Below are positions 29,388-62,330 of a stretch of DNA of 64,000 nucleotides, piece by piece. The position numbers and the translations under genes were made by a program. Position 1 is the first letter of the stretch. Each line of letters starts with the position of its first letter. The DNA comes from Nageia nagi (Eukaryota; Plantae; Pinophyta): NCBI GenBank assembly GCA_050084985.1, contig JBITNC010000001.1, positions 163,618,001 to 163,682,000 on the forward strand, read 5' to 3'. A model generated the notes under the pieces. The model was not told where the DNA came from. It searched no databases and saw only the letters and a list, made by a program, of their open reading frames with translations.

Positions 29388-29409
29388 GTGACCTCCTCCT
29401 AAAAATTAT

Positions 29410-32392: not shown

Positions 32393-34370
32393 AGCATACC
32401 TACAAAATACAACAAACTTAAGTTGAGTATATGGCCTAAGGTGAAGATGTGGTCTTCAAGGCTCATACCTATGGATAGGAAGGATTCATTTTTCGTAAGG
32501 GACACCAAGCTTAGTTTGAAATGTGATGTAATTTTTTAATTAGACAAGGTTTGCATCTTGGAAGAACTTATGTCAAAGGAAAGTGGTACCTTGCACAAGC
32601 TTCTAATAGCATGAAGGTGACGACCAGGTAGAGTCTAGTGTTGGGGAAGTTGGCAAAGGAATGAAAGAGGCCATGGTGTAGGTGTGGAAGGAGACAAACT
32701 TGTTGTCTCGTGGAGGATTTGTGTTGATATGGCTTGTGTAGGGTTATGGGGCCATATTAGGGTTGGTGTAAGCATCCAAGAGGATAAATGAGGTTTGCTA
32801 CAAGCGATGAGGGAGACAAACTTGTTGTTTTATGACCAACTTGCACTAGGAGAAGTGTGAGGTCATGATAGGGTTGGTACAAGCCTTGAGGATGAAAAAC
32901 TTCATGTCTTGGGGCACATTTGTGCCTAAGGAGCATGTGTAGGAGGGAAATGAGGTATGGCGCAAGTGTGGAGTGAGACAAACTCCCTATCTCATGGTGG
33001 ACGTGCATTAGGATGGAGTGTACACATGAAAGGGATGAGTCTAGCCACTGACAAAGATGAGGATATGTCCAAATACTACTCAAGGGCTTGCACTAAGGAA
33101 GACATATTAATTTATGAAAGATTCAAAAATTGAATACATTATGACTCGACTACTTACCTTGATGCTTTGACAAGTGTGAGATATTGGCTTTGCTATCTTG
33201 CTCCAAATATTGGTAAAAGAATGCGCTTACCTAGATGCCCTAATGAATTTAGAGAAGAGAGAGCAAATTTATGATGTAGAAATGTGGGTAGGCTCTTCTT
33301 TTATAGGTTATTCCTAGGATTTCTTAGGATTAGGTTGGTTGAGATCTTAGGAATGTGTGCATTTAGGGATAAGGATGACTTTCAAGGTAATTAGATGTTA
33401 ATTTCGAGGTCAACTAGCCTCTTAGGATGGGTGCAAGTTCCAAGGAGGTCAAATGGTGCATATATTCACCAAGGTGGCAATATTAAAATCCAATGCAATC
33501 TCCTTAAGGGTCAATGATTGTGGTTGCATCATTCAAAATTGTCTGGTGAGCTTTCAATGATAGCCATGGTTATGCTTTTAAGATCTGCCATAATGGAGGT
33601 GTCCTAATGACTACTACTACTAGTGATTGTTGACATTGATTTCCCATCAATGGATGATGCAAATCATTGAGTTTTCAAAAAAAAATTATTTATTTTTATT
33701 TTGCTATTGTTGTGCTTGCAAAACACACCCCAAGATGCAGCATTTTGGGGACCCAATTTTTGCAACAACAGTGAGTGACATTACTTGGGGATGATTAAAC
33801 TATGGCTAGTATGGATGTCCAGTATGGCCAGATGATCTAGCAACGAAACATCATGCCCTAAAGTCATGATGAGAGTTCATCACAACCAATGGCCAGGTCA
33901 AGGCCCGATTTCAAGCGACATCTCATAGGATGGAATTTTAGGTCACGAAAATAGAGTTTTTGAGTGAATAGTAGATGTGGCAAAAATAGCAATGTTTTTT
34001 TATCTTGAAAAAGGTGACTACGACCAAAAGGTGAGTTTTGGTCACTTTTTATTTGAAATTGTAATGTAATGTTGTGTAATATTTCTCTTTAATGTAAATT
34101 TACTTAATGCTTAAAGTATCTTTAGATACTTTAAAGCATTAAAAGAATAAATATAAAAACACCTTTAACTTTACCCTTGGGTTAAAGGGTGGGTTTCTTC
34201 TTATGAATGGAGAGGTACCCCTCTCATTATGAAACTTGATGAAGTGTGGTAATGTTTGTCTTATAGAGTTGTAGGAATGCTCTTGTAGGAACTTTGTAAA
34301 AGAATTTTTATAGAAGATTTCTTAAGAATTTATAGGAGAGTTATCTTGTGAGAAGTAATAGAATGATGGT

Positions 34371-37300
34371 TGATGCATTCAATTGGGTCTAAAATCTTTG
34401 GTCACCTTGCTGAGGGCATGGCTTTTGATTTGGGTGCCTGTTGGGGCTCATTTTTCTTTCAAATCACCTTGGATTTTTTGGACCACTTTTTGGGGCCTGA
34501 TGACTTCATCTTGGACCCTGAATTTCGCATGCAAAGTTATTTCCCAATTTTGGAAAGTGTTAGTTTTTTAGTAGTTTTTAATAAGAGTATCAATTTAGTG
34601 ATGCTATTTTAGAAATGGCATAGTTAATCTATAATGGATGCATGACTCTAGTTCAAAACTCATCCAAGCTATTTTGTAGCCTTTCTAAAAATAGTAAGCT
34701 GATTTTTCTAGGTGTAACAAAAACTTACTTTTTTAGTAAGTTCCGTTACGTAGAATTGGAGGTGGAATTTGGGTATAAAGGAAATGTAATCCTCTTGAAG
34801 GAGGCAATCTAGATTCGAAAATAAAGAAAATTTCATTATTTGGTGAAATTCTTTGTTCATGGTAATTCTTTGTCTATGGAATTAACAAACCAAAAATTAC
34901 CCCTTGAATCCATTATTGGTCTCTTGTAATGAATCTGCACCATTTGGTATCAGAGTAGGTGTGATCTTGCTTGGGGAGAAGTGCCACCTAGAAAAGCCTA
35001 AGGGAGGAGCTATGCCTAGATGAATAGACAGATCGAGAATTTGCATGCAGATATAACATGGTTAGTTGGGGCAATTAACCAAATGGGACATGTACGTCCC
35101 AACATGCAACCAGATCCAAGATCAGATCTAGAAAGCGTGAATGAGGAAGTTGGGTCTCAGGCTAAGATGGAGGCCGAATAAGAAGGTCCAAGGGTAGCAA
35201 AAGTGCCTTTTGAGAATAGACTGATTCAAGCCTTAGAAGGGATGAAAGGGAATCGAGATGGAATCAAGATTGAGGTTCCTAAGTATGTTGGTGGGTGAAA
35301 ACTAGAGGAGCTGATCAATTGGGTGAATAGCATGGAAAAGTATTTTGAACAGAGCAGCCTTGTGGAGGAAAAAAAAGTGAAGCTCGCATGCACAAAGTTG
35401 AAGGGACATGCATTAATCTAATGGGATCATCTACAAGATCAACGCTAAAGGAAAGGAAAGGAGTAGATTAGATCTTGGAAAAAGATGAAGAAAAAGTTGT
35501 AGACTAAATTCATTCCTATAGAGTACTCCCAAACCTTGTTTCCTAGATTTCAGAATCTTTGACAAAAGGAAAAAAGCATTAAAGACTACACCAATGAGTT
35601 CTATAAGCCATCCATTCATGTGGAGCATAGTGAAACAAAGGAACAACGAGCTATGAGGTATGTGAATGGCTATTCAAGATGAGATAAGTATGCATCGCAC
35701 CATTACTATAGAAGATGCATACCAAATGGTCTTGAAAGTTGAGGAGAAACTTAAGAGGATTAATAGAGGGAGTAAGAAGGGAGGAACACCCTCATCCAAT
35801 TAGGGGCATGGTGAATCTAGCTTTGTCAAAGGAGAATCTTTGACCCCTAACAAGCAAGAGGATTAGGTTGGGCATGCTCAAGGTGTCTCCCAAAGGGGAA
35901 GAGGATATTCGAGAGGTAGAGGTAGTTAGGGAGGAAGGAACAAGAATGAGCCAAGGAAGCCATTCATCTGTTATAGATGCAGCAAGAAGGCCATAAGGCA
36001 TTAGAGCACCCTCATTATGATGCTGATGAAAGAGGACCAGCTAGGGTTGCTCTACTTGAAGAAGAGGAGACTGAAACAGAAGTTATTGAAGATGTTGGAG
36101 AAACCCTCATGATAAAAAGAGCCATGACTATCCCAAAGAAGGCCAGCATGCAAGCAGATGAAGGTGGAGATTCATGGCTATGCACAAATATCTTCTGCAT
36201 GAGGTGCACCTTTGGAGGGAAGGTATGTAACGTGATCATAGATGGAGGTAGTTGTGAAAATTTGGTCTCTAAAGTCATAGTTGAGGAACTGAATCTAAAT
36301 TGTGAGAAACATCCTATGCCCTACCGTGTTACATGGATCAAGAAAGGAAATGAGATGATTATTGACAAGAGGTGTTTGATAAGTTTCTCAATCGATAATA
36401 TGTATCAAGATGAAGTATCGTATGATGTGATTCCAATGGATGCATGTCACATATTGCTTGGGAGGCCATGGAAATTTGATAGGAAGGCTTTTCATGATGG
36501 ATGCAAGAATACCTATACATTCTAGAAGGATGGCGTAAAGGTAATACTTTTACCCCTTAAGGAAGAAGTACCCAATCAAAGTTTGTTGTCAAGAAAGAAA
36601 TTCATCACAGAACTACGGGAGGTTGGTTGGTGCTACGCTTTAAGCATAAAATAAGTAGAGGAAGAAGAGGTTCGTATACCGCATACGATCCTAAAATTAT
36701 TGGAAGAATATCCAGATGTCATACCTGAAGAGCTATCAATAGGACTACCACCCAAGAGAGATATTCAACATCACATTGATCTAATTCCAAGTTCAGCCTT
36801 TCCAAATCAGGCAGCCTATCGGCTAAGCCCAACACAAAATGTTGAGTTAAGTAAATAGGTAAATGAATTGATGAAGAAAGATTCATACGCCTGGACTCTT
36901 GACTCCTAAGAAAGATGCCTCCTGGCGGATGTGTATAAATAGTAGAGCCATAAATAAGATCACTATTAGGTTATCAATTTTCGATACCTCGAGTAGATGA
37001 TATGATGGATGTTTGATCGGGGCTAGCTACTTCAATATAATTGATCTTCAGGGCGGCTACTACCAGATCAGTATCAGGGAAGGTGATGAGTGGAAGATAG
37101 CTTTCAAGACCTGATACGGGTTGTATGAATGGATGGTGATGCCATTTGGATTTTCAAATGCACCAAGTACATTTATGCGATTGATGAATAGGGTACTCTA
37201 ATAATACAATGGTAAGTTTATGGTTGTATATTTTGATGATATCTTAATTTTCAGTAAGAGTGAGGTGGATCATTTGTATCATTTGAGGCTGGTGTTAGAT

Positions 37301-40102
37301 CTGTTAAGGAAGGAGAAATTGTATGCCAACTTGAAGAAATGCAAATTTCTATAGGAAAGTTTAGTGTTTTTGGGATTTGTGGTCTCAAAAGGTCTCAAGA
37401 TGGAAGAAGAAAAGGTACAAGCGATTGTTGACTGTCCTAGTCCAAGGAGCATAACTGAGGTTAGGAGTTTCCATGGCTTGGCAACCTTTTACAGAAAGTT
37501 CATCAGGAACTTTAGTAGCCTTGTGGCACCTATCACAGAATAAATGAAAGGGAAGGAATTCTCATGGACAAAGGCAGCACAAGAGAGTTTTGAACTCTTA
37601 AAGAAGAAAATAAAAATAGCTCCTATTTTAGTGTTACTTGATTTCAGAAAACTATTTGAGGTTGATTGTGATGTTTGTCACCTTTGGGATTAGAGTTGTG
37701 TTAAGCCAAGAGGGATGTTCTGTTGCATTCTTCAATGAAAAGTTGTATGAGGTAAGAAGGAACTACTCCACTTATGATGTTGAATTCTACGCTATTGTTC
37801 AAGCATTACGATATTGGTGCCACTACTTACTGTCTAAGGAATTTGTACTCTTCATTGATCATGAAGCATTGAGGTATATTAATTCTCAGAAGAAGTTTAA
37901 TAGTAGGCATGCAAAGTGGGGATCATTCATTCAAGAATATGTGTTTATTTTAAAACATAAATCAAGGAAGCAAAATAAAGTTGCAAATGCATTAAGTAGG
38001 AGAACATTGTTAGTAAGTACCATGGAGAATGTAGTAGTTGGGTTTGAGAGTATCAAAGGTATGTATGAAGATGACTCTAACTTTGCACATGTTGTGTGAC
38101 AGTTTAAAGACCCAACCATGGATGAAGTTGGTCTTATTTTTGCAGAATATGTTATGCAGGATGGGTATTTATTCAAGGGTACATAGTTATGTATTCTAGT
38201 TGGTTCCATGAGGGAAAATCTCTTGCGAGAGTTGCATAGCAAGGGTCTAGCTATGCACTTTGGAGTAGACAAAACACTCACACTTGTTGCAAGGAAGTAT
38301 TTTTGGCCAAATTTGAGGGATGTGACCAGGTTTGTGAGATGATGCAGGATATGTCAGACAACTAAAGGCCAGGCTCAAAATACTGGTTTGTATATGCCCT
38401 TCTTGATCCCTACCAAACCTTGGGTAGATTTGAGCATGAATTTTATTTTGGGACTATCATGAACTCAGCAAGGTAAGGATTCAATCTTTGTTGTTGTTGA
38501 TAGGTTCTCTAAGATGGCCCATTTTCTTGCATATAAGAAGATCGAAGATGCCACTAGTGTTGCAATGTTGTTCTTTGATGAAATTGTAAGGCTACATGGA
38601 GTCCCAAAATCTATCACCTCATATCAAGATGTCAAATTTTTTAGCCACTTTTGGAGGACCCTATGGAAGAAAATGGAGACACAGTTACAGTTCAATAGTG
38701 CATATCACCCACAAACTGATGGACAAACAGAGGTTGTAAATCGTAGCTTGGGTAATCTCTTATGATGCATAGTTGGAGCAAAGCCAAAGCAATGGGATCA
38801 AGCTTTAGCATACGCAAAGTTCGCATATAACAGTTCAGTTAATCGATCCACAAGGAAGTCACCATTACAAATTGTTTATGGAAAGAATCCTAAAGGTGTT
38901 CTCGACTTGGTTGAATTACCACTCACACAAAATGTTAGTGATGATGTTGAGGTGTTTGTTAAACACATACAACAATTGCAAGTGGAGGTTCGAGTATAGT
39001 TACAAGAGAATAATGCCAACTATAAGGAAGCAGCAGATTTGCATTGAAGAGAGAAGATATTCCAGGAGGGTGATTTAGTGATGGTCCACCTTCATAGAGA
39101 ACAATTTCCTAAAGGCACGTACAATAAGCTAAAGATGAAGAAGATTGGTCCTTGCAAGATTCTAGAGAAGAGGAATGACAATCCATATAAGGTGGAATTG
39201 CAAGAGGACCTGGATATTTCACCTATTTCAATATTTCTTATTTATATGCATTCCATGGGGAAATTCATGATGGTGAGGTAGAAGGTCAAGTAAACTGGGA
39301 GGAACAGCTTCCCAAGAAAAAGAAGGAACGCATCGTGCAGATCCTTGATCAAAAGGTGATCACCACTAGACATGGCCAATATCCCAAGTACTTGGTATGA
39401 TGGGAAGGATTATCTGTAGCCAAAAATAGTTGGATTTAAGAAGGGGAATTGAAGAAGCTTGACAACAAGAAGCTCCAAGAATTCCATCAATTGAACTCAC
39501 AGGAGCTAAGTTCTCTTCAACCAAAGGAGATGATGCACTCAATCGGGCCTAAAATCTTGGGTCACCTTGTCAGGCCGTAGCTTTTGATCTGGGTGCCCGT
39601 TGGGGCCCCTTTTTATTTCAAATTGCCTTAGATTTTTTAGACCACATTTTGGGGCCTGATGACTTCATCTTGGACCCTGAATTTCGCATGCAAAGTTATT
39701 TCCCAATTTTTGAAAGTGTTAGTTTTTTAGTAGTTTTTAATAAGAGTATCAATTTAGTGATGCTATTTTAGAAATGGCACAGTTAATCTATAATGGATGC
39801 ATGACTCTAGTTCAAAACTCATCCAAGCTATTTTGTAGCCTTTCTAAAACTAGTAAGCTGATTTTTCTAGGTGTAACAAAAACTTACTATTTTTAGTAAG
39901 TTCCGTTATGTAGAATTGGAGGTGGAATTTGGGTATAAAGGAAATGTAATCCTCTTGAAGGAGGCAATCTAGATTCGAAAATAAAAAAAAATTCATTATT
40001 TGGCGAAATTCTTTGTTCATGGTAATTCTTTGTCTATGGAATTAACAAACCAAAAATTACCCCTTGAGTCCATTATTGGTCTCTTGTAATGAATCTGCAC
40101 CA
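34371..40102 (+). mobile_element. Full-length Ty3/Gypsy chromovirus, CRM-like (5.73 kb)
   Basis: Two 572-bp LTRs (34371-34942 and 39531-40102) with TGATG...CACCA ends. TSD ATGGT at 34366-34370 and 40103-40107. PBS TGGTATCAGAG at 34945-34955. Domain order gag-PR-RT-RH-INT-chromodomain. Confidence 0.96.
34990..39525 (+). pseudogene. CRM-like gag-pol with C-terminal chromodomain (disrupted)
   Basis: KVKLACTKLKGHAL gag; NIFCMRCTFGGKVCNVIIDGGSCENLVS (CRM-type protease, 35977-36525); RT VVYFDDILIFS; RNase H NYSTYDVEFYAIVQALRYW; integrase [21 protein letters not shown]; GPCKILEK; ILDQKVITTRHGQYPKYLV*WEGL...SWI chromodomain at ~39335-39460. Confidence 0.93.
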
Positions 40103-43100
40103 ATGGTTCAAAGTGGATGTACTCCCAAGAGTTGAAGGAACCACTATACATGGTGTGTTATCATTTGTGTGACTGATCCTTGTTTTTCTAGATGGATGAA
40201 TGTTAGATTTGTTGGAGAAGCTTCAAGGAGATCTTGGTTTATGAAATCCTTCAATTCCATCACTTTTGAGCCCAAAAAGCCTAAAAAAGGTCATTATGAC
40301 AAAAAAGCACATTTTGGTCAATTTTGAGCCAAGAAGTGGCCAATATGGTAAAAATGTGCATTTTTGCATAGTTCGAGCCCGGAATGCTTGGAAATGACCA
40401 AAATGCAAAGTTGAGCTCAAAGTGCTCAAAAATACCGAAAATGTAGAATTTGAGCTTGAAATGCCAAAAATATCGAAAATGATCATTTTTGCACATCTTA
40501 AGTCCGAAATTACAGACTTTGAGCTTGAAATATCAAAAATGATCCTTTTTTACCGTTCAAGCTCGAAAATGTTCGAAAATATCAAAAATGGTCGAAAGTG
40601 CATACTTTGAGCCTGGAAATGCATAGCTTGGGCCCATAAAAGATGGAAAAGACCAGAAGTATGCAGTTGAGCCCATAATGGATTAGAAAAACAAGTTTGA
40701 GCATCCTTGGAGGATGAAATCAAAAAATAAGCATTTTGGTGCCTAAGAAGTTGGAGGATGAAATCAAAAAATAAGCATTTTGGTGCCTAAGAAGCCTCGA
40801 GTTGAGCCTAGGAAAATGGGTTTTTTTCTAAATGCTCAAAATGAAAATCTGAGAGAAAGGTGTGATGCCAAATGATGAATTAAGGCAACTTTGCTCTTAG
40901 AAATTTCAAAAAAACTCAAGTTTCACCCTCCAAAAAGTTAGGGGGAGTTTTGCAAGTTTTCCCTCACTCTATCAAATCTCGAAAATGGCCTATTATCTTC
41001 AAAACCTACACCTACGTTTTGGGAGGCCCAAATTGAGATAGAAGTGGGATTTTTGATCTTGGGAGCTTGGAGATTATGATTCTACATCAAATTGGTCTTT
41101 CAAGTTCCCAATTTCGATAAATTTTGCTTCCTCAAAAGTGGAAAATGAGCAAAAAGGACAACCAATAAGAATGCATCAAAATGAAAATCTAAGAGAAAGG
41201 TGTGATGCCGAATCCAATTTTAGGCACCTTTGCTTTTGAAATTTTTGAAAAAAATTAAAAAGCACCCCCCTAAAAGCTAGGCATAGGTTTTGCATGTTTT
41301 CCTACCTTTGGCCAAATTTTGAAAATGGCCTAATTCCCTCAAAACTAGATTGCAAAAAAAAAAAAATGAAATTTTTGATCCCCATGAGGTGCAGGATGGG
41401 ATTTCACACAAAATTGATGATTTGAGTTTTCCAAAAAAATGAGATCTACTTCTTCAAAATCATCAAAAATTGATTAGCCAATGAGAGACCTCCAAAATTT
41501 TCCAAAGTTGGCCAAATCAAAAAAGAAGAAAGAGGTAGGGTAGCAAATCCAAAATGGAGCATCTTTCCTCTTGAAATTAAAAAAAAAAAAACAACAACTT
41601 TTTGACCCCCAAAAAGTTAGGTGGCTCTTTTTCTCAAAGTTCCAAACTTGCCTAAAAATCCCAAAACCTAACCCAAACTTGGGAGTGCCTAAAATTGCTC
41701 AAAAATCAAAACTTTTGGTCCTAAGAGCATGGGAAATCCAATTTTGCACAAGTTTTATGTTTTAAGTTTTTGAAAAAAAACGGATCTACTCCCTCAAAAT
41801 CACAAAAAATGGATCAGCTGATGGGAGAGCTTGAATATTATCCAAATTTTTCAAAATAATCAAAATCAAAATTGGAGAGAAAGGTAGGGTGGAAAATCCA
41901 AAGTTGAGCAACATTGCCTCTTGGAACTTTTCAAAAAACTCAAGATTTGCCTTCCAAAAAGTTAGGGGAGAGTTTTGAAAGTTTTGGGCCATTTCACCAA
42001 AGTTCTAAACATGCCCAAAACCTCTTAAACCTACGCCTAGCCTCCTTCACCCCCAAACTTGCTTAAAGTTGCCATTTTATGATTCCATGTGATAGGTGGT
42101 GTGATTCTACACCATTTTGGTCTCTCATTTGTGCAATTGGTCCATCAAAAACTCCCAAAAACCATCTTTTGGTCTTCAAAGAGGACTCAAGGGCTAACAA
42201 ACTCAAAATTTAAAATCCAAACTCAAAATATTTGGTACCTATGCTTGTTTCTTGGTCCTTAACATACAAGTTGAATGGTATTCTATGTCAGTTTCTCCTT
42301 TCATGACATCTTTTTAGATCCATCCAAAATCATTACCCTTTCACTTTGAAACTTTCTATTTCCATCCATTTGAGGTTCATCCCTACTCCTTTTTGAAGCA
42401 ATTCAAATGTGAAGTTGTTTGCTTGCAATGTTGGATGAATTGGATGAAGAGTCTTTAACTGATTAAGAAGAGATCAACACTTAGACACCTTCCTGTTAGT
42501 GAACCTCAAACTCATATCCGATCAAGTATTCATTCCTTCTCCAAGGTGTTCTCCTTCACCTTTTACTGTATTGTCTTTATGCTTTATTTATGCTTTCGAA
42601 CCCAAATACAATTTTTAAGTCCACACAAATATTTCGAATAAACTCTATACACCAAATAAAACAACGTTGGTTAACAGACTATTACCTCTCATGAGGGACA
42701 TCACACTTTCTTTTATCTATCTCTACACCAGAAACACACTTGACAAACATACCTACAACGTCAAAACGTTGAGTTGTTGAGTAGGGTGTTTCAACAAGAG
42801 CCTTGGAGGTATAAAGTTCTTTTCAAATGGGGGAATTGGTCACATATTCCCAACTACGTTGCTTGGGAGCTCCTAAGTCCTTCACATGATTTTCAAAGAG
42901 TCGCTGCGGGGAAAGAAAAGCCTCCCAACACATCCGAATATAGTAAATACTTCTACTATATTACAAATATTACAATCCTTAAGGATTATGTGTCTAACAA
43001 CTAGTAGAACTAGCTAGTACATACACTATAATCATGAAGAATATTTACAATTTTTGGCTATATAAGTAACTCTTCCTGTAGATGTTGATGTTTATTCTTA

Positions 43101-48151: not shown

Positions 48152-48223
48152 CTTTACTATGGGAAACAGTAGCATCACTCAACTGCTGAATGAACCTTTC
48201 CAAATTTGGTGGACCAACATCAC
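48152..48223 (-). CDS. NDUFAF2: 72-nt internal exon of the NDUFAF2-like gene (upstream exons lie beyond the window)
   Basis: Strong acceptor ttttgttttcgttttcttatacag, donor AG|gtatat, phase 1-1. Encodes (G)DVGPPNLERFIQQLSDATVSHSK, similar to the recalled angiosperm motif GKVGGPDLKSFIRQF. Confidence 0.82.
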
Positions 48224-49988: not shown

Positions 49989-52192
49989 CCTAACATGACA
50001 GATCACAAAATTTCCAAAATCCTTCATGGTGCAGTAAATGATTGATAAAAAAAGAAAAAAAGCCAAGAGACCAAATCAATGCTGAAACAGAATTGTATTA
50101 GAGAACTGACTGCAAACATTAGAGAGGAACAAGAGGAATATAAATCAAGTAGCACAAAAAATATCTGCACTAGCAGCATTTTCTCCTTTTGGGACGCATT
50201 TTCTACTAGCCTTCAAGGCCTATATCATGCAATGCACTCTGTTGGAATATAATGCTGACCATGTGTCAAAATGAATTTGCAACTCCTCTTTTAATTGTTT
50301 CAGTAGAATATGTCAATAGGAAAAATTATTAAGTGTTTCAATAGAATATGTCAGTTTGTAAGAGATTCTTGTGAATGTAACAGTATTGTAATGGGTAGTT
50401 TTTAGTGAGGGATATTTGATACTGAAAAAGTTTTTTTTCAAGATACGATGTCTTTGTGTGCAGACCAGTTTTTTTTCTATTAGATTAAATTGTCTGTATC
50501 AGAAGGTTGTAACTTGTGTTTTATAGATTGGTTTTTGTTCTTATTTATACTTTTGAAAGCCCTTACTAATATTTTTCCAAAAGTATAAACTTTGTCCAGT
50601 TTGAAGCTGTGTAGCTCTTACTGTAATGTTTGCAAAAGCCCCTTCTAGTCTTTTTCTGCTTGGACCTCAGCACTCTAAAATTATCTTGCAAACCTCGTAA
50701 CTTTTTCTGTAGTTCGTATTTTTCCATGAAGTAAAGTTTTCTGAGTACTCGTTATAGAGCAGAAAATACCTTCTATATTTCATGAAATTCTGCATCATTT
50801 TGATCCTTGGTTAAAATGGTTTAAGTGCTCTTTGGAATCTTAGTACACTATGTAGAACTGTAACCCCAGCGCACTGGAGTAACCACACGCTTGTTTTGAG
50901 CTATTTTTCTCCCATTATTGTGTCATAAACTTCATTTAGTATCATAGCCTTGTACAGTTGGAGGATTAGAGTCACCTGTGGTCTCACTAACAATTTATCA
51001 AGTTGTTTTGTAAAGATTATTGCAGGATCCTTGCTTCTTGAGTGTAATGGCCAACAACACTAACTCATTGCCAATCCTTGAGTTTGATGGAGTTGATTAT
51101 GAATACTAGAGCATTAAGATGAGGACCTTGGTAATGGGAAAAAGTTTATGGGATATTTTGGAAGATGGTTACATAAAACCAGTAGATTGGAGCACACTTC
51201 CCGCAGCAGATAGACAAGCTAGGAAGTGTTGGTATGTTTTTTCTTTCCTCGCCCAAAACATGCACAAGACTTGGAGGAAACAGTGTTACTTGTTTCCGCC
51301 TAAAAGGACTGGTTACCCCAGGCACTCACATGGAATATTGACTAGGGCACAGTGGTCAAAGATGCATGTTGTTAACCATATACAAGGGAAATACATGGTC
51401 GGGATTTGTTTTCCACAAAGAGGAAAGATTGCAAATGTGAACGAAAGCGAAGAAAGATCACAAATGCAAGGATAAATGCATAGGAATATAAGAAGACATC
51501 ACCAATGATGCAATGTCTCAGCAGGTCATCTCCGGATTCATTAAGAAAATGTATTCACTTATCAAGTCAGGCAGAAATAGCAAAGAGGCTCAAGTTACTG
51601 CCAGACGAGAGCAAGAAGCTGTAGGGTCTTGGTGGAAGACTGGATGGAATAGGGTGAAGGGAAATGACCAACATGCGAATACATGAATCTAACCGTATGA
51701 CATAGAGACAAGCTATACACCCCAGAATACATTCACTTACGTGCAAACCATGCAATGAACAACTTACACCACTTCGAAAGATATTTAATCAGCTTTTCTT
51801 AGAACTCGTAGTTTTCAAAGAAAATGCACTTAAGCAGTAAAAATCACTCAAAACAGCAAGAGAATCTTACAAGATAATATGCATGATCCCACAAATGATA
51901 ATCTTCATAGCATTAACTTTATAGAACTATTCCAAAAAGAAATAAACTCACAATGATAATCCATAGCATGAACAAAAGCATTCCTTTCTTGATTGCAATG
52001 ATCTCAATATGATATTCAACATGAAACGTAGATACGACAATATGCATCCATGATATGCAAAGAATCCCTTATGTAGCAAATTCTTATGCAACCATATACA
52101 AGAATCCTCAGTTTTAGCAGATGCAATAGTCTTCAATCAACATTATGCCTCCAATTTTGCAAATGCAAAAATCTCATATATGTAGGCCACAA

Positions 52193-52260
52193 GGCATTGG
52201 TGTAGTGGTAAGGGCTCTTGGTCTCCTTTGGGAGGTCATGGGTTCCAATCCCACAAGCCA
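52193..52260 (+). promoter_or_regulatory. tRNA-derived (SINE-type) Pol III internal promoter
   Basis: A box TGGTGTAGTGG (52198-52208), B box GGTTCCAATCC (52241-52251). T-stem TGGG/CCCA, acceptor-like GGC(A)TTG/CAAGCC, anticodon-arm-like CTCTT/GGGAG. Confidence 0.8.
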
Positions 52261-52666
52261 AGAGAGGAAGCTATACCCATGTGGAGGGGTAATAAAGGTA
52301 GTGGTAAAACCTGAGGTGCTAGTAGTGGCTAACTAGGGTTTCCTACATAGTAGATTATAAGGACTCCCCATTACACGCACATAGATATAGATTCTTCAAA
52401 TGTTTACCCTAACAGTTGTTACAAATTCCTTCCAAGAGAAGGCATATGATAGATCTATGAATCGAGCGTGTGATCTATTACGAGAGAAGACCTAGGTGAG
52501 CGAAAGTCGGATTAATCCTGTCAGTAGAAGAAAGTTGGGAGGGGAATGGTGACAGATAGGAACCTCCTACACCCGTAGCAAGGTAAATTTGTTTAACTTT
52601 ATTTTGCTTCTTAGAATGCACCTAGGTTTTCAAATTGCCCTGTAGGCGAATGGAAAGACAAAAACC

Positions 52667-53881
52667 ATGGCGGGAACTCTCTTCGTAGGAGGCAAAAATC
52701 GATACAGGGCCCCCATTGCAGGCAACATGGGAATCGAATGGGAAGCTTCATCTAAAAGTCCCACAAAAAGTTATAGATCAGATAGCAAAAAGAGGGCGAT
52801 TGAGCTTAATTGGCAAAGTACAAGGAGCTAGGCCAAATATAGATGATGTGCGGAGATGGGCAGAGTTCAAATGGAAACTGAGAGGAAGTCTGGATATAAT
52901 AGCCTTACCAAATGATTATTTGCTCTTTGTTTTCGGAAATGAAGAGGATTGAAATGAAATTCTGAGCTCTGGATGGTTCATATCCAACAGGGGACTATTC
53001 CTGGAGAGATGGCAGCCCGGATTTGACCCGACTAAAGCACCGATCTTGAGAGCACCAATCTTAGTTACACTACCCAAGCTCCCGTTTGACCTTTGGCACC
53101 AAAAGGTTTTTGAAGGAATTGGCAATTCCTTTGGAAGATTTATCAAAGCAGATGATGTAACAAAAGCTCGAACACGAATGATATCGGCTCAATTTTGTGT
53201 CATGATAGAATTCGGGGAAAAACTCCCAACCTCTATCACTTTGGTAGCAAAAACAGAAGATTTTGAACAAGAAATTAAGTATGAACCAAATAACTACTTA
53301 TGCTCCCTATGTAATCAGGTTGGTCACATTGCGAGAGTGTGCCCAAAGAGATTGCTACGGGATAAAAAAGAATGGAGATTGAAACCACCCCAAGCGGAAC
53401 CATATATTGAAGAAGATATAGAGAAGAATGATCCGGAGGAAGGTGAGATCAACCCTAAACAGACTATATGGAGAATAAGTCAAGCAGGCTAGAAGATGGC
53501 AAGACAGCACAAAGCACTAATGATCATACTACGGGGGCTGAGAATAACCCTCCGACCAATGAAAATCCATCAAACCCTGCGGTTGAACCTATCTAGCTCA
53601 GTATGGATCTTGATCGTTCTAAAAATGAGGAATGGCAAACAGTGAAAAGTAGAAAGAATAGAGCCAGTCCAACTCAATCTAGTGACACTACAAGTAAAGA
53701 AACCTATCAAAGAGTACTACGTAGTACTTCGAAGAAACCTGATATAGGACAAAGACATTTTGGACGTCCAAGGAAAGAAGAACTCAAGGGATTAGAGACT
53801 GCAAAGGAAGTCACTAATGGAAAACAAGCAACACTCGAAGGCCTTGAAAGAGAATTCCTCCTCAAAACTAAGAAGAAATGA
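52667..53881 (+). pseudogene. Plant L1 ORF1-like protein (DUF4283/RRM-like plus CCHC zinc knuckle), lightly disrupted
   Basis: SLIGKVQG..W.LRGSLDIIALPNDYLLFVF..EED, LFLERWQPGFDP, VTLPKLPFDLW..IGNSFGRFIKAD, YE...LCSLCNQVGHIARVC, EWQTVKSRK. About two frameshifts and one or two stops. Confidence 0.88.
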
Positions 53882-54604
53882 GGTGATAATCTACAGGCTA
53901 CGAGTTTTGTAGCAGATTCACTTAGAGAATTGTTGATTCACACACTAGCAGATTTAAATCTTGAGATTGATAATTATATAACTGTGGCAGCATGTGAAAG
54001 GGTGGTATGAACAGTAACCGATGGAGAAAGTTGATAAACCGTAGCCCATAGTTCTCTTCTCATCTACGGGAGAAACTATGTTAGTTTTTCTCTCAAATGT
54101 AACTTTGTTGAATATCTATCATCATGTATATACAGGTTTTGGGACCCTGTTTTTTGGAAAACCCACTCTTCTTTTTTACCCTTACCAAAAAAAAAAAAAA
54201 AAAAATCTCATATATGCAAAAATCCCCTTCTAAATGGCCTAAGTGGGGTATATATAAGCCACTAGAAGTGTTTCCCTAAAGGCATCAAATCTGATATGGT
54301 GTGCACACACACACAACATACATACTGATACAAAATCTGATTGTTCACAAAAAACAATGCGAGTGGCATTTAAAAGCTGACAAAATATAAATGCCATAGT
54401 CGTAATGCATCTAATCTACTTATAAACTATGAAAAAGAAAATCATATATGCAATAAATGTCTAACATCTGATCCGGCAAGAGCAAAACCTCATCCCTACA
54501 CCAGTCAAATCAAGTAAATGAAGTCTGACATAAAAACAACCACCATCAATATGCATTAAACAAAGAAAGGATAATCGTAGACAAAATCTACGAGTGGATC
54601 AAAT

Positions 54605-57600
54605 CTAGGCCAGATCTGATCCAGTACCAACGAAGCTCCACTCCTTATTGGTGAGACCGTACGACTCAATGGTCTCTTCCAAGAACGCTACGGTCTTTCG
54701 TACTCCCCTGGAAACCATGCCAATGATGCTGCCATTCTGCCTAAAGTAATCCTCAATCTGTTTGGACATAGCCTACATCTGGAATCTTCATATGACCATC
54801 TACCTCTCACAGAGAATAAGATGCCCTGCCTTCAATAAGTTAAGGTCCTCGACCTCAAGATGCTCCTGAATTAGATTTTGAGCCTCTACCAATAACACTT
54901 CCTTCTTGCGCACGTTGTTGTCTTTCCCTTGAAATCTGAGCTAATATACATATTTACTCATCTTCTCCTCTACCTCCTTTCTCAAAGGGATCCTAACTTT
55001 CAGGGCAGCATTGCACTTCTTAAGTGCATGCATCCAGTCGTGCTGATACATAAATTCATGGCAGTAGACCAACTTATCACATTTGTCAGCGAAGATCTTC
55101 CACAGATGGGTGACGTTTGCGAGATAATCATCCAGCTTCTCAAGGAGGGCTGTTATTTGTGATTTCAGCTCTCGAATCTCAACACCTTCCTCGAGGAAGC
55201 TATATATCTGAGAAGATAACTTCTCAATGGTCTCCATCATCTCCTTCTTCAACTGGTCCTTCATTAACTCCCATCTTGCATTGAACGAGGCTTGCTTCTT
55301 CAACTCGATGGGGGTGGTGCTAACGGTTTGGAACTCCTTGATGATTTTCCTATTGGCTGTGAGTTCCTTCTTGAGTCTTCTCAACTCCTTCTTGGCTTCG
55401 TAGCCTTTTTGTTCCATGACAGCAACATTTTGAGTAACAATGTGCTTTTGGGCTATCAGACCTAGCTTCACAGGCATCTTAAATGTTTCAATCATATAGT
55501 CATCAGGTCTCTGGGGATGTTTCTCCTTGGAGTAACAATGGTTGATGGAGATCTCCTTCCTTGTAGTAAAAAAAAGGTGTCTATTCTTCTAACCTTTTCA
55601 CCATCGAAGAACTCCTCTTCTTCATCCTTAGATATCAAGTCCTAATCAATTTCTTCATCGTGAGTCATATTCATGTTCAAGGCTCTAAAGCAGGCATCTA
55701 AGTCAAGATCTGGATGTTTGGTTGCTAGTTTGGAAGGGAGCCTCTGCACCAGTACTTGGCCTCTATTGATCTTCTTGACTTCTTTTTCCGGAGTGACTTT
55801 TGTTGGAGTGGCTTGAATAAGGGCAACCTCCTTACCCTAGTGCTCATCCCGCTTCCTCTTCTTCTTATGTTCCTTGGTTTCCCCTTCATCTTCTTCATCT
55901 CCGCCATCGCCACCTATTGATAAACCTTTCTTGCGTGGTTTAGGGGATCTTTCATGGCTAGTCCTCTTCACAAAGGGCTTTTGAGAAGACAAGGGTGACC
56001 ACCTTCTGTGTTCAGCAGGAGAGTGTTTGGAAGAACCCACCTCTTTGGCATATTTCATTCCAACAATCTGGACTTTTTCGTCATAAGTCCCAATGTCTAC
56101 AATCTGGTCATCACCATCATCCAGGAGAGTTTCAATCTCCATCTCATCAGGTGCAGACGCACCTATGGCTACATTGTCTTGTCCAAGGTACTCTTCATTA
56201 GCAGCATCATTTGCATCATCATCATCTTCTTCTTCTTCATCACCACAGCTTTCTTCATCATTCTCTTGGTTCTCCATCTCTTCCTCTGAGTCTTCTATAG
56301 TACAGTCAGGTTCTTCATCACTTTCTTCATCAAAAGAATAAGTGGAATATTTTGAAGAACTAGAACTTGGTTGCAATGGGGGAACTTTCTCTCTGCATCC
56401 AGGAGGACGAGTAGGTCTAGATGGAGCTTCTTCAACAGGGGAATCACTAGCACAAGCTTCCTCCAGCATACTCAAGGGGATGGTATAATAGTCAGTATCT
56501 CTAAGATCAGCCACCACCTGTTGGCTTTTCCTAACTACATCAGTCACCACATCATGTTTACTAGGTCCTAATGCATGTTCCCTTGATGCTCCTTGTCATT
56601 TCCCAATGAGAAGCAAGGGTGTTTTAGCATGTAGAGGCGCAACGTTTGCAGAAGGAGGAGGGGACGTTATGATCCTCAATGGTACCTCTTTGGGTCTTGC
56701 CTTTACAGTTTTGGATCTTGCAAGTAACCATTCTTCCTAGAGGGGAGCCTTATTCTTGCTCAAAAGAGCGCTATCTCCTCCTCATCTTGCACATTCATGT
56801 ACTTCTCCACATTCCCTAAAGATTTGTGCTAGTAAGTAACAAGTTTTTAGAATGCAATGCTGTAGAAATGAACAATTACACCTCTGGGATCATAATTCTT
56901 GGCTGCCATCTCCTTAAAGAAGACGTATTGTTGCAGTTCCTTCTTCATATTGTTGGCCTCAACCCATGTCTGGCAAACATAACTTGCGATGGAAATGGGC
57001 AAGTTGATGGTTACATCCATCTTTCTCCATACTCGTTCCTTTAAAAACACCAACTGCCTAGCAAATTCCATGAGAATGAGTCTATTACTGGCATATCTGG
57101 GTAGGAGCAAGGGTTGTTCTTCAAAGCCATAGACCATAATGTAAGTATGATCAATATATTGCAGATAGAAGTCTGCATGCACACTGATAGCCTGAATAGC
57201 AGCATCAAAAATCCTCCTGACTACTAATTCTCCCTTAATATCTTTGTAAATGGTGTACTCCCACTGATCATTCCTCTCATAGAAATGCTTGAACTTATTA
57301 TAATACCACCACTTCGGGTAGGTCCGCCACACTGGAATGCCTTTCTAACCCAAATATCTCTCATCTGCAAGCTCTCTCGATCTAAGCTTGCCATGTAACA
57401 ATAGGTACACAAGATAGGAATTCATATAAAATCTTTTGGAAGAGCCAAAGTAGGCCAATTGATGACGTAAGGCATCACTGATTACCCTGCTCCATCTGAC
57501 AACTCTCCTTGAGTTGATCAATGAATCCAATCAACTCCCTCCTATACTTGGAGTCATTTACTTGACCCATGACTCTGGACAACAAAGTGATCAACTTAGC

Positions 57601-58207
57601 AATCGTGGGAAGGAATTCCTCCCTACGAGCACTAATCAACCTCTGGCCCTAGATGCCTTGGTAGTCTTCATACAACCATCGTCTGATATAATCCCCAGGC
57701 CAGGTAGTGGAATCATGGAATTCTTCTAAATTGACCAATATGTGATCATCTTCGTATCTTTTCCAGCCAAAGGCAACTTCAATCCCTTCCAGAGAGAAAT
57801 CCATGATCATGTTCCCCTCGATGTCCAAGAGAACTCTCTTATCATATTTACAGCATTTAGCGACCTCATAACACAACTCAGGAAATGAAACAGCCAAAAA
57901 CAATCATAGTGGTATTAAACAGCCCACAAGAGTGGATAATCTCATCTGATAAATCCTCCTTACTGATGGAGGCAGTGGAGGCTATGGTCTAGATGGGGTC
58001 AACATTTCCCCAATCTGTATCACCAATATAGGTGAATGTCCCCTTGAATTTGGCTTCAAGAAGCTGAGGTTTCTCTCTTTCTTGAAATTCTATTTGGCTC
58101 TCCCTCAAAATCCTCTCCATCTAGTCATCTGTGACATGTCTTTTGAAAAGTTGTCCCTAAATCTTTCTAGCCTTGGAAGGGAGAGGCCTCACCTTAGAAG
58201 TCATCAT
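54605..58207 (-). pseudogene. ~1200-codon ORF of unknown function inside the giant LTR-like element (disrupted)
   Basis: Collinear ORF pieces 57649-57903, 57345-57530, 56847-57332, 55837-56550 (D/E-rich, basic KKKRKR) and 54941-55495 (coiled-coil-like). ATG ATG at 58207, last stop ~54605. Homologous to 29410-32392. Confidence 0.8.
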
Positions 58208-58479
58208 TAAAATCTGAAAAATGTGCAAAAACTTGCAGAAAAGCTAGAATTTTGATTAGGGAATGCCCCAGCACCAAATTGAATGTGTTTTGCAAAAAAA
58301 ATAACCAAACATATAGGTCTAGACTGTAAAATGTCCTGCAGTGATGAACTGGGGCTGTCCTCTTTTATAGAAGATGCATGGAGGGTTTGTGCATGGCACA
58401 ACACATGTGTGCCACTTGTCTTCTTGATCTTTCAACTCTTGGCTTCTTCCACACTTAGGTAATTTCGACTCACAGACCC

Positions 58480-60200
58480 CAGGTCGCACGGTTTAGAGGA
58501 CGTGCTTTTTCATTGCCTGGAAAACATGTGACTAGGTTCCTGATGGGCAAACACATTACTTAGTCAATTTAGGTCATCAATACTCCATAATGAAGGTCAA
58601 ATCACCACCTCATACTAGGGTCATGGATTAGAGGACGTGTTTTTTCATGTCCTCCAAAGAATGCGCTTCAGATTTGTATGCACAACTGAAAAAAGAATGA
58701 AATGCACCTATTTTTCATGTATACTTAGCCAAATTCCTGGACATGGACCTGGGCGCACCATTTCGGATGAGTCCTTGAAGCACTAATAAGATAGCATGCG
58801 CATAGGTCAGTTTAGGGTAAACTTTGTCAAGAAGATGCAAACTGAATTACAAAAAATGGACCCTGAGATCCAGCTCACCCTCTTCGAAAATGGTTACTAG
58901 TAGTCTAGACGCCTCTTCAAACCCTTATGTCTCCTGGGCGCACCGATTTTGATGAGTCCTCAAGCATGTTCCAGAAATGGTGCGACTAGGAATCTTTGTT
59001 CAAAATGAAATGAAGTGGTAAAATGATAAAGGGGTGACTTGGTATATATATCCTTCAAACTTGCCACATGTCACCTTTTGGTTGGTTGAAAATGATGTCA
59101 AATGATGAAGCTAGGATGATGGGCACACGGTTTTGGATGAGTGGAAAAGCATGTCCTGAAATACATGCACCTACCAACTTTGATGCCCAAAAAGGACTTA
59201 GTCAATTTCCACTATACTTTGAAAGCTCTTGCAACTTGGTCGAACCTTTTGAGAGGGGTGCCAAAGCATGTACCTGAAAATATGCGCCTGGCCCTCTTCC
59301 ACCTAGATTTTATACTTAGTCAAAAGTGCTCCTGGGTGAGGACATCTAGGAAACTGGCACACCAATTTTGATGAATGCCTAAGCACACCCAGAAACCTTG
59401 TGCCTATTATGTGGCACACTCTCCAATGCAATGGACTAAAATTAATGAAAAAGATCTTGAAATTTACCATCCAGGATAGGGCGTACCGTTTGGGGGACAT
59501 GCTCCTTGGACTTAGCTCTGCACAATGCTCCGAATTCAACCAAACAAACTGAATGCTAGGATTAACCTTCCTTTTATAGGCTTGCTGAGGTGGACAGGTG
59601 TCATGCAATGACTGATGCGAGTGAAGATCCAATGCATGTGGACACACCTGTCTCTCTCATGATGGACGTCCAAATTCAACACTTAGCCAATTTTTGCATC
59701 TCGAAATAGGGTGCACAGATTTGGGGATATGCAAAAGCATGTACCTGAAAACATGCACTCAAATATCCTTGCCAATTTTCCCAAAAAAGACTAAGTGCCG
59801 AAAATGCTTCTCTCATAGGCACACCATTTCGGGTACATGCAAAAGCATGTGCCAGAAAACATGCGCTCAAACATTTTTAACAATTTTCCTGAAATTTTCT
59901 AAGTGTTGAAACACCTTATCATCCTAAGTGCATCATTTTGGAGACATGTAAAAGCAAGTTCCTCAAAGCATGTGCTCAAACACAAAATGCAGCTTTTCTT
60001 CGAAAATGACCAAAATGACCCTCGATGATATCGTGCAAAGGAGGGGATGCAATTTCCACAAAATGACTAAGTGAAATGAGTATGGATGATGCAATTCAAG
60101 ACTAAAAATGCAGGACTTAAGCTAGAATTATGCAGTATGAAGGAGGGCACATGTTCCATGGTACATGCAAAAGCATGTCCCTTAAAACGTGCACCATAGG
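58480..60200. repeat. Degenerate interspersed subrepeats in the distal part of the giant LTR
   Basis: Recurrent ggg(c/t)gcacc...tttt(g)gatgagtcc..aagcatgt.cc.gaaa..atgc motif at about 58750, 58935, 59120, 59355, 59708, 59817 and 60145. Confidence 0.65.
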
Positions 60201-62330
60201 TAAAATGGCCAAGTTTTGACTTGTTTCATCATGAAGGTGCAAATTTGATAGGTTCTCCTTCGTCTACTCTACGATGCATGCATTTACTTAGAAACATTCC
60301 TCCATGCCTTTACATTTTAGTACAATGAGGGTCCTCAAAAATGCAATTTTTTTTGGGGGGTGTTGTGCAAGCACAACAGGAAGGAAGCTCAAGAGAATAA
60401 CTACATGGCACTGTACCATGTTCAATCAGGATTGGATAAAAGTACTTTTCCAAGGATAGATTGATGTAAAACAATTGTATATGCATGGAAGGCCTTGAAA
60501 GATGGTTACCAAGGAAGTGAGCAAGTCAAGCAAGTGAAGTTGCAGACTTTAAGGAGAGAGATTAAAAACCTAAGGATGTAAGAGGCTGAAAGTGTTGGTG
60601 ATTATTGTGTGAGGGTAAAGGATATTGTCAATTAAATGACAACTCTTTGGAGAAGAATTTGAAAAAGTGGTTGTTGTAAAGAAAGTGTTGAGAACAACTC
60701 ACTTCCAAGTGGAACCATGTGGCTATTATTATTGAAGAGAGTAAAGATATATCTACTCTCGAGTTTGATCAGTTGATGAGACTGAGAGAAATTGTTAGTG
60801 GTGTAGAGGAGAAAGCATTTTCTTCTAAGAGTGATGAAGCAAGTTCTAGTGGGAAAGGAAAAGGAAATGGTCAAGTAGAGGTCAAAATTCTTCTAGAAGA
60901 AGAGGAGGTAGAAGAGGTGGTGCAATTAGTAGAGGCAAAAGCAAAGGTGATAAGAGGAATGTGCAATGCTACCATCACAATAAGTATGGGCATTTTGAGA
61001 TAAAATGCAAACCGAACACTAGTAATGAAGGCAAGACTACAAACTATGTTGAAGAAGAAACTGCTGATCAACATTTGTTCTTACCAAATAACAAGGATGA
61101 TAAGAATCTTCAAGAAACTTGGATTCTTCATACAGGATGTTCCAATCATGTGTAATATCCCCAAAAATGCTCAATGCAGAAATTAGCCAACTAATTATCA
61201 AACAATATTCAATTCAGTCCTTAAGCATGCCACCTTTGAACTAGGGCATCAAATACATGTAAAAACAAACCAAGAATGCCAATGATTCACTCTATAGGCA
61301 AGAATATCACTCAAATGCCCAACGTCACACACAATGAGACAAGATTGCACCAAACGCGCACAATTATAAGACAATAATGAGATCCAAAGTACCCACGGTT
61401 GTATTAATGATGAAAGGAGTGAATGATACAATACCAGGCCCAAAGGGCTCAACGTTGGCCTCCAAGGAGCCAACTAGGGCACATGCAGTGCTAAGATATA
61501 TGTTGAAACTAGGGTAGAACAACCACCTCCTACTAGTTCTATGGATGCCTCATTGAAGGGCTTCCTCACAAACTAGATCCCGGTGAAGAGAACGGGTGTG
61601 GTTCCAAAATGCCACCGGATGGATTCAAAGTTGAAGATCGCTTGTGAATGCCTCAGGGTAGGGCAGCCTCACTTGCACGAACAACACCTCAACCATGTAA
61701 GATAGAAGGTGTCCTAAGCCTCCTACACTCCTTGTGTGCTATGCTCAAGGGTGCTGGACACTGCCAAGACTTTGGTAGCTCCGAAGAGAAGGGTTTCCAT
61801 ATCAAATTCAATCTATCTCAGATATGAGGCTCTTTAGCCTTATATAGCTCATCATTGGATCTAGATCTCACCTAGGATTCATCCCCAACATCTCTAATCT
61901 CAACATTGGCCTCCTGGAAGCTCAAGATCTCTAACATGTATGCCTAGGGGTCAAGCATGTCTAACCTGGATACCTAGGGGTCATTAATGCCTACATGGGG
62001 ATCTGGGGTGCCCCACATGCCAACATGGGTGTCCAAGGTGCCACGCATGCCAATGTGGGAGTCCAAGGTTCCACGTGGGTCTAGGAGTCATGCATGGGTG
62101 CAAGGGGGTCATCATGGGCCAACATGGGGTCTAGGAGTCTCCCCAAGGCTAGCGCATATGTACAAGTTCTCCCAAATCCAACATTGGGGCAAATAGGTGC
62201 TTATCCATGTTCTAAGTGTTGAATAAGCCTTGGGATTCCCAATCATATTTGGGATCTCCAAGTATATTAAATAATAAATAAAATAACACATCCTAGCTTA
62301 GAAGGAAAACGTCCCTCATGGGGCTCATAA

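What the first reader, a model, noticed from the sequence alone, without database searches (positions are those of the whole stretch)
51227..60378. Giant ~7.1-kb solo LTR that appears to encode its own ~1200-aa protein within U3
Seen: the insert has integrase-type ends (TGTTG...CAACA) and a perfect 5-bp TSD, splits a Copia gag cleanly, and shows no second LTR, PBS, PPT or gag/pol. A minus-strand TATA-like box at ~54249-54258 places R/U5 at the left end. The long ORF (58207-54605) lies upstream of it in the sense orientation and has its own TATA-like CTATAAAAG at ~58342-58350. The protein has a conserved N-terminal globular domain, an acidic low-complexity tract, a basic NLS-like KKKRKR and a coiled-coil-like tail. 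Established: genes inside U3 are known from retroviruses (MMTV sag; HIV nef overlaps U3), whereas plant LTR-element extra ORFs normally lie in the internal region. Inference: this family may carry an accessory gene in each LTR, so even solo LTRs would keep a complete transcription unit, possibly a chromatin or anti-silencing factor.
Basis: partly seen in the sequence, partly recalled or inferred. Interest (0 to 1): 0.87.

Follow-up and report, generated by a model that had tools for sequence, protein, structure and literature searches.

The report
Giant LTR carrying VANC-fold gene
This is a lone, 7.1-kb end-repeat of a plant (likely conifer) jumping gene that holds a now-broken, formerly selected gene of about 1,200 codons inside the repeat itself, and the protein's core is predicted to fold like the anti-silencing protein VANC21, so each end-repeat likely carried its own shield against host silencing.

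Summary
The insert is real. It has TGTTG...CAACA ends, a GGAAG target duplication and a clean split of a Copia gag. It is 7,118 bp without the nested LINE piece and has no terminal repeat. The ORF is not open: 15 stops, 4 frameshifts. It was under purifying selection, with dN/dS 0.17-0.19 against three copies. It lies inside the LTR. Three other copies run colinearly from the ORF towards the LTR 3' end (one reaches it). A diverged paralogue in this window (26999-33707) puts the ORF upstream of an LTR end followed by a primer-binding site. A related ORF-less LTR has both of these end types. No element with two ORF-bearing LTRs and no PPT was seen. A confident model of a homologue (pLDDT 86) matches only VANC21 bound to DNA (Z 7.2, next 2.7). 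This is a moderate match. Likely reading: an Athila/Tat-group gymnosperm element whose PMD/VANC-fold accessory gene moved into the LTR, next to tandem sub-repeats it would bind to resist silencing. Function is untested.

The parts
51227..60378 (-). E1: solo LTR, 7,118 bp net of the nested LINE piece
   Evidence: ends and 5-bp TSD; no terminal repeat; contigs of 4 of 4 runs break at 60378 with mixed flanks
51222..51226 (+). left target-site duplication GGAAG
60379..60383 (+). right target-site duplication GGAAG
51047..51226 (+). 5' part of the interrupted Copia-type gag (Copia label from sequence look and recall; no Pfam hit on the 60-aa piece)
60384..61150 (+). 3' part of the interrupted gag (decayed; right limit approximate)
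52183..54216 (+). nested L1-type LINE piece (ORF1 with DUF4283 and zinc knuckle, poly(A), own TSD); absent from L002 and L005
54605..58207 (-). broken accessory ORF, 1,201 codons in span, five frame segments, 15 stops
56709..58207 (-). N-terminal globular domain, predicted VANC/PMD-like fold (modelled on homologue P0037)
55579..56730 (-). low-complexity middle with acidic tract and KKKRKR (about 55851-55868); least constrained part, dN/dS 0.29-0.34
54605..55588 (-). conserved C-terminal helical, coiled-coil-like part (by eye), dN/dS 0.12-0.14
58487..60201 (-). degenerate tandem sub-repeats (7-8 copies, spacing mostly 108-117 bp or multiples), candidate binding sites
58362..58370 (-). sense TATA-like CTATAAAAG about 160 nt before the ATG; intact in L002, altered in L001 and L005
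59571..59579 (-). second sense TATA-like CTATAAAAG; E2 has a similar one near 33305 followed by two consensus splice donors
58214..58225 (-). T-rich tract and CAG 6 nt before the first ATG, splice-acceptor-like (inferred)
   Evidence: 4 of 6 copies pass a post-hoc rule that 1.8% of background positions pass
54249..54258 (.). conserved TATA word downstream of the ORF; canonical polarity is antisense in most copies
26999..33707 (-). E2: diverged paralogous ORF-bearing 5' LTR (ORF about 32400-29390; nested solo LTR 28011-29387); its 5' start is not seen
26979..26993 (-). primer-binding site 5 nt after the E2 LTR end (matches the L005 site but for one missing base; tRNA-Asn assignment recalled, not tested)
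33708..42931 (+). E3: related ORF-less LTR, about 3.0 kb net of nested elements, no TSD

Best explanation
This is a solo LTR of a plant Ty3/gypsy-type retrotransposon (likely the Athila/Tat group, likely in a gymnosperm) whose LTR contains a now-broken accessory gene of about 1,200 codons, and the protein is predicted to have a VANC/plant-mobile-domain fold that would bind the LTR's own tandem sub-repeats and likely keep the element from being silenced. Shown: ends, TSD, split gag, purifying selection on the ORF, the same ORF-to-LTR-end layout in other copies, and a primer-binding site downstream of the ORF in E2. Inferred: (a) an ancestral 3'-internal block of tandem repeats, promoter and sense ORF entered the LTR when plus-strand priming moved upstream, so reverse transcription copies the gene into both LTRs; (b) recombination between the two LTRs left this solo copy; (c) the gene has its own promoter and probably a leader intron; (d) the N-terminal domain binds a short motif in the sub-repeats, the basic motif imports it to the nucleus, the C-terminal helices oligomerise, and methylation falls locally as with VANC21. 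My odds: gene inside the LTR as a family trait about 0.8; VANC/PMD-like fold about 0.75; anti-silencing function about 0.5.
For: Architecture: L002 338-5515 is colinear with 58399-51227 at 74-88% nt and ends in the same CATACCAACA. L001 and L005 are colinear from the ORF start to 54293 and 51632. No LTR start lies between ORF and LTR end in any of them or in E2. E2 has 25-36% aa identity over four stretches, shares the post-ORF motif and U5 box and is followed by a PBS. L005:103-4054 has both E1-type ends and a PBS, which defines both as LTR ends. Selection: dN/dS 0.17, 0.19, 0.19 over 1052, 1102, 1098 codons (bootstrap 0.14-0.23); shifted-frame controls 0.75-1.23; third-position changes 2.1-2.6 times second-position. 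Family: 166 homologues at E<=0.001, one named from Taxus chinensis (1 of 10 looked up), one uninterrupted 1,010-aa member with the same layout. Fold: model pLDDT 86, pTM 0.84; best of 48,161 chains is VANC21 with target DNA, 9lnk_A, Z 7.2, 228 residues, rmsd 4.5, next Z 2.7. Atlas leads were Transposase_32 and ATHILA at 0.79-0.81 (lead only). VANC targets are short motifs in tandem repeats that differ between families (PMC5735166, passages). E1, E2, E3 and L005 each have different sub-repeats in the LTR 5' part. VANC is structurally related to MAIN/PMD (PMC13547354 and bioRxiv 2024.09.27.615353, passages).
Against: No element with two ORF-bearing LTRs, no gag-pol and no PPT-adjacent copy was found. 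No copy other than E1 links the LTR start to the ORF in one piece; L002 reaches only 58967, and E2's start is missing. The two other LTRs seen end to end (L005:103-4054 and E3) lack the ORF. A purine tract follows the downstream TATA in E1, L002 and L005. Z 7.2 is within the 7-8 typical of best hits for models without a clear match; identity is 7%; Foldseek found nothing in PDB or BFVD. The model is of a homologue about 23-30% identical to the close family, not of E1. 0 of 45 homologues and 0 of 5 E1 segments reach a Pfam cut-off, PMD, DUF1985 and ATHILA included. CpG o/e in the sub-repeat region (0.38) is not clearly above the rest of E1 (0.28-0.44) or the LINE piece (0.47). A shared fold shows no function.
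Confidence: 0.6

Rival explanations
1. The gene is inside the LTR but in R/U5, not U3. The sense TATA at 58362-58370 or 59571-59579, right after the sub-repeat block, is the main LTR promoter, the ORF is the first cistron (like the Ogre 5' ORF, but upstream of the PBS), and gag is reached by splicing or read-through. This competes on position only and is compatible with the VANC-like function.
For: The canonical sense TATA words lie upstream of the ORF in E1, L002 and E2. The downstream TATA has antisense polarity in 5 of 5 copies and sense in 2 of 5. E2 has two consensus donors after its upstream TATA.
Against: It needs a minus-strand strong-stop DNA of about 5 kb and gag translation behind a 3.6-kb ORF (inference). 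The downstream TATA is kept at a similar place in all five copies.
Confidence: 0.35
2. The canonical family has shorter ORF-less LTRs with the ORF in the 3' internal region; E1 and its look-alikes are deleted or recombined derivatives joining an LTR start, the internal ORF and an LTR end.
For: ORF-less related LTRs exist, one with a PBS (L005:103-4054) and one in the window (E3). Tandem repeats plus an extra ORF is the usual 3'-internal layout of Tat elements (PMC11963269, passages). A purine tract lies downstream of the ORF in three copies. No two-LTR element was seen.
Against: It needs a second LTR start between ORF and LTR end, absent in E1, L001, L002, L005 and E2. Homology between the PBS-bearing LTRs (E2, L005) extends upstream of the purine tract to the post-ORF motif (91% over 35 nt). 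The layout is shared by copies at dS 0.8-1.1 and by a paralogue at about 30% aa identity, so it was replicated as a unit.
Confidence: 0.15
3. The gene is in the LTR and binds DNA or chromatin, but acts as a transcriptional activator, an integration-targeting tether or a Polycomb antagonist rather than a VANC-like demethylation factor.
For: The same fold is used by MAIN/MAIL proteins, which counter Polycomb silencing (bioRxiv 2024.09.27.615353, passages). Functions of retrotransposon extra ORFs are unknown (PMC7264820, parts 1-2 of 3). The acidic tract could be an activation domain (inference). No CpG excess in the E1 sub-repeats.
Against: The pairing with family-specific tandem repeats is the VANC pattern (PMC5735166).
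Confidence: 0.3

Closest known systems
OTA non-chromovirus Ty3/gypsy elements with extra ORFs: Athila (ORF-1 PF03078, Transposase_32 PF20167), TatII/TatIII, Ogre (PMD plus coiled coil)
   Same: 5-bp TSD, TG..CA ends, non-Met PBS (tRNA-Asn occurs in Athila 12%, TatII 15%, Retand 4%; PMC6317226 supplement), very long LTRs, tandem repeats, sense extra ORF with globular domain, NLS and coiled coil (PMC4408406, PMC11728184, passages).
   Different: Described extra ORFs lie in the internal region (PMC7264820). No Pfam family is matched.
VANC anti-silencing proteins of VANDAL Mutator-like transposons (VANC21, PDB 9lnk)
   Same: Predicted fold of the core (Z 7.2, 228 residues); neighbouring family-specific tandem repeats; a coiled-coil region (PMC13547354, passages).
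   Different: Carried by a retrotransposon LTR in a likely gymnosperm, not a eudicot DNA transposon; 7% identity; binding and demethylation untested.
MAIN/MAIL plant mobile domain proteins and retrotransposon PMD-A
   Same: Structural kin of VANC per the two papers read; PMD ORFs occur in gymnosperm TatIII (PMC4408406, passages).
   Different: No PF10536 hit; the TatIII ORF is antisense and internal.
MMTV sag, HIV nef (retroviral genes in or overlapping U3; recalled, no call)
   Same: A protein gene copied into both LTRs.
   Different: Unrelated protein, about four times longer than sag; plant element; U3 position not proven.

Membership tests
Solo LTR | TG..CA ends with 4-6 bp TSD | tested here: met
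Solo LTR | No second LTR, PBS or gag/pol inside | tested here: met
Solo LTR | Both ends are LTR ends in relatives; 3' end followed by a PBS | tested here: met
   L005:103-4054 and E2; these are related families, not E1's own subfamily
Solo LTR | Unit occurs as two direct copies around gag-pol, with a PPT before the 3' copy | not testable with these tools
   no genome held; no such locus among 5 fetched; flank consensus at 60378 unresolved
Athila / Tat (OTA) Ty3/gypsy | RT/RH/INT phylogeny; aRH presence and position | not testable with these tools
   no pol linked to any copy
Athila / Tat (OTA) Ty3/gypsy | PBS for a non-Met tRNA (Asp/Asn/Ala/Arg/Lys) | tested here: inconclusive
   a PBS-shaped site is present in two relatives; the tRNA-Asn match is recalled; searches found no relevant paper with the word
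Athila / Tat (OTA) Ty3/gypsy | Extra ORF located in the internal region | tested here: not met
   ORF is upstream of the PBS-adjacent LTR end in E2
ATHILA ORF-1 / Transposase_32 / PMD / DUF1985 Pfam families | Pfam score at the gathering cut-off | tested here: not met
   0 of 5 segments, 0 of 45 homologues; Atlas lead only
VANC-like anti-silencing factor | VANC/PMD core fold | tested here: inconclusive
   single clear top match, Z 7.2 vs 2.7, 228 aligned, rmsd 4.5; not found by Foldseek
VANC-like anti-silencing factor | Family-specific tandem repeats in non-coding parts of the element | tested here: met
VANC-like anti-silencing factor | Sequence-specific DNA binding and induced demethylation | not testable with these tools
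   needs experiments; the CpG o/e proxy was uninformative
U3-encoded gene | Genomic-RNA start downstream of the ORF | tested here: inconclusive
   TATA polarity ambiguous; no RNA holder listed

The most novel reading that the evidence does not exclude
An old lineage of gymnosperm retrotransposons has turned each LTR into a self-contained anti-silencing cassette: a VANC-fold DNA-binding gene with its own promoter beside its co-evolving target repeats. Every solo LTR would then start life as a trans-acting source of protection for its family, and such elements would be missed by LTR finders capped at 5-6 kb.
Probability: 0.4. Interest if true: 0.88.

Novelty: new variant of a known kind. Interest (0 to 1): 0.72.

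Why it matters
If true, solo-LTR formation, the host's main way to delete these elements, would leave the accessory gene behind. It would extend sequence-specific anti-silencing from eudicot DNA transposons to retrotransposons of giant gymnosperm genomes. It gives a testable function for a large family of unannotated proteins (166 clusters, no Pfam) and for long-unexplained tandem repeats in Tat/Athila elements. It also suggests that 7-kb LTRs are missed by standard annotation limits.

Tried and rejected
No host genome was held, so the genome-wide copy search could not be run. The record behind L005 could not be searched further. Viral-contig scans were empty: 0 of 35 candidate stretches by protein, 0 by end-plus-PBS pattern. 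Sequencing runs: no RNA holder listed; four runs with a 0.05-0.08 share. All 30 bins were covered in 4 of 4 runs, but summed contig depth is no copy number and was not used. Flank consensus at 60378 was mixed (agreement 0.48-0.63), so no PPT could be read. Searches for long homologues found none (one search looked only at 1,769-5,000 aa, so it did not test full-length copies). A model on a 10-row alignment failed (pLDDT 37) and was not searched. PDB sequence search gave nothing under E 0.07. A second Atlas search gave no usable hit. Plus-strand orientation (an antisense ORF as in TatIII) was rejected because the PBS follows the left end on the minus strand in two relatives. A one-off chimera was rejected because the layout recurs. 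An ORF remnant in the ORF-less LTRs was not detected. The first acceptor-site script had mis-cut slices and passed 1 of 6; the corrected, post-hoc rule passed 4 of 6. Positions 1-76 of L002 are a perfect inverted copy of its 1668-1743, probably an assembly artefact, and were ignored. Ten literature searches showed no plant LTR with a gene inside it. The library lacks most subscription papers; the VANC21 structure paper and Sasaki 2022 were not held. Additional file 1 of PMC6317226, the per-element table, was too large to read and may list such elements.
Full report
Observation. The insert 51227-60378 starts TGTTG, ends CAACA and has GGAAG on both sides. The flanking gag frame reads through once the insert is removed, and one contig of run X1 holds the empty gag site. 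Contigs of all four runs break at 60378 with differing flanks (2, 5, 6 and 8 contigs), so this is a terminus at many loci. Self-comparison finds no terminal repeat. The nested 52183-54216 piece is an L1-type ORF1 fragment with poly(A) and its own TSD. Net length is 7,118 bp. The upstream TATA-like word is at 58362-58370.

The ORF was a real gene. A metagenome scan returned five plant-derived loci (5 of 306 candidate stretches). Against L001, L002 and L005, Nei-Gojobori dN/dS was 0.17, 0.19 and 0.19 over 1052, 1102 and 1098 codons. Codons with gaps or stops and short zones round the frameshifts were left out. L003 (short) and L004 (distant) were not used. Shifted frames gave 0.75-1.23. All five segments are constrained; the acidic middle least so (0.29-0.34). 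A profile search found 166 homologous clusters. Of ten looked up, one carries a species name, Taxus chinensis; this is the basis for 'likely gymnosperm'. P0135 is an uninterrupted 1,010-aa member with the same domain order.

The ORF lies inside the LTR. L002 is colinear with E1 from 58399 to the last base of the LTR, then runs into unrelated sequence. L001 and L005 are colinear from the ORF start to 54293 and 51632, where the contig ends or another element begins. The window itself holds a paralogue, E2 (ORF about 32400-29390, 25-36% aa identity; profile hits 2e-41 and 1e-44). Its left end at 26999 shares the U5 box and end motif and is followed after 5 nt by a primer-binding site. L005:103-4054 has an E1-type start, an E1-type end and the same PBS, so both E1 ends are LTR ends and the sense strand is minus. 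No LTR start was found between ORF and LTR end in any copy. An ORF upstream of a PBS-adjacent LTR end, with no new LTR start between, is by definition within the LTR. Limits: E2's own 5' start is missing (E3 abuts it head to head at 33708); only E1 links start and ORF in one piece; no PPT, gag-pol or two-LTR element was seen. L005:103-4054 and E3 lack the ORF, so the lineage has both forms. L004 carries a 40%-identical ORF about 1 kb downstream of sub-repeats 79% identical to those of E3, which suggests E3 lost the gene.

U3 or R/U5 is open. Sense TATA words sit upstream of the ORF (58362-58370, 59571-59579; E2 near 33305). The downstream word at 54249-54258 is kept in five copies but reads canonically on the antisense strand in all five and on the sense strand in two. 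A T-rich YAG lies 2-11 nt before the ATG in six copies by eye; four pass a post-hoc rule met by 1.8% of background positions. E2 has consensus donors at 33230 and 33157. A leader intron is therefore plausible but not shown. There are no RNA data.

Protein. Pfam gives nothing at cut-off (0 of 5 segments; 0 of 45 homologues). A 143-row alignment gave a confident model of homologue P0037 (pLDDT 86.2, pTM 0.84). Among 48,161 PDB representatives the only match with Z above 5 is VANC21 with its target DNA (9lnk_A; Z 7.2, 228 residues, rmsd 4.5, 7% identity, model 29-309); the next is 2.7. The tool warns that Z under 8 can be chance. The gap to rank 2 and the aligned length argue for homology. Foldseek found nothing. 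The Atlas pointed weakly to Transposase_32 and ATHILA. Papers read as passages report VANC as structurally related to MAIN/PMD (PMC13547354; bioRxiv 2024.09.27.615353), PMD plus coiled-coil ORFs in Tat elements (PMC4408406), and VANC binding short motifs held in tandem repeats that differ between families (PMC5735166). E1 has 7-8 degenerate sub-repeats at 58487-60201, and E2, E3 and L005 have different ones. CpG content gave no support.

Mechanism. Most likely a 3'-internal block of repeats, promoter and sense ORF, the usual Athila/Tat layout (PMC7264820, parts 1-2 of 3 read; PMC11963269, passages), became part of the LTR when plus-strand priming moved upstream. The gene is then copied into both LTRs and survives in solo LTRs. 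Its product would bind the repeats and locally resist silencing. Origin, expression and function are inferred; this copy is dead.

Comparison. It works like an OTA element's extra ORF and probably like VANC. It is not filed as Athila, TatII or VANC: pol is unseen, Pfam tests fail and the ORF position differs. The REXdb survey capped LTRs at 6 kb and saw about 5 kb at most (PMC6317226; passages, section 13, supplement file 3 whole, file 2 searched). It lists TatII with forward extra ORFs at both 5' (23%) and 3' (26%), as an LTR-borne ORF would score; PMC4408406 saw none in its lineage II. Ten literature searches showed no plant case of a gene inside an LTR, within the library's limits. PMC11728184, PMC12859917 and PMC10508981 were read as passages and added no such case. 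An unreviewed note of this scan (e1-10590828, seen) describes a similar design in another plant; it was not checked and is not counted as support.

Verdict. Observation partly confirmed; first reading partly supported; new variant of a known kind; interest 0.72.

Noticed in passing
window 26979-33707: E2, a second and much older ORF-bearing LTR with its PBS; its internal region is almost wholly lost under nested elements (Gypsy-like 20667-26876 with TSD TCTTT, Copia ending near 20596).
   Followed up: yes
window 33708-42931 and L005:103-4054: In both places an ORF-less related LTR abuts, head to head, the upstream region of an ORF-bearing LTR. L005 has a second such junction near 14788. Could be targeted nesting, recombination or assembly artefact.
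   Followed up: partly
window 60330-60378, 33708-33771, L005:4005-4054: The LTR start holds a conserved palindromic block (CCCCAAAA..TTTTGGGG type) near the terminus; in E3 the first 64 nt are themselves bounded by TGTTG..CAACA.
   Followed up: partly
window 52183-54216: The LINE piece has ORF1 and a poly(A) tail but almost no ORF2, an unusual truncation for an L1 copy.
   Followed up: partly
window 34371-40102: LTR element with ~590-bp LTRs (94% alike), TSD ATGGT and a Met-type PBS, nested in a solo LTR (about 34046-40259, TSD TCACT) that is nested in E3.
   Followed up: no
window 4069-11917: Minus-strand Copia element with LTRs 94% alike and a long AT-rich stretch (about 9800-11400) between gag and its 5' LTR.
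   Followed up: no
window 44800-48225: Exon-like pieces of a minus-strand host gene with splice-site-shaped edges; not identified.
   Followed up: no
window 63712-63984: Weak match (60% over 312 nt) to the 3' part of E3, opposite strand, at the window edge.
   Followed up: no
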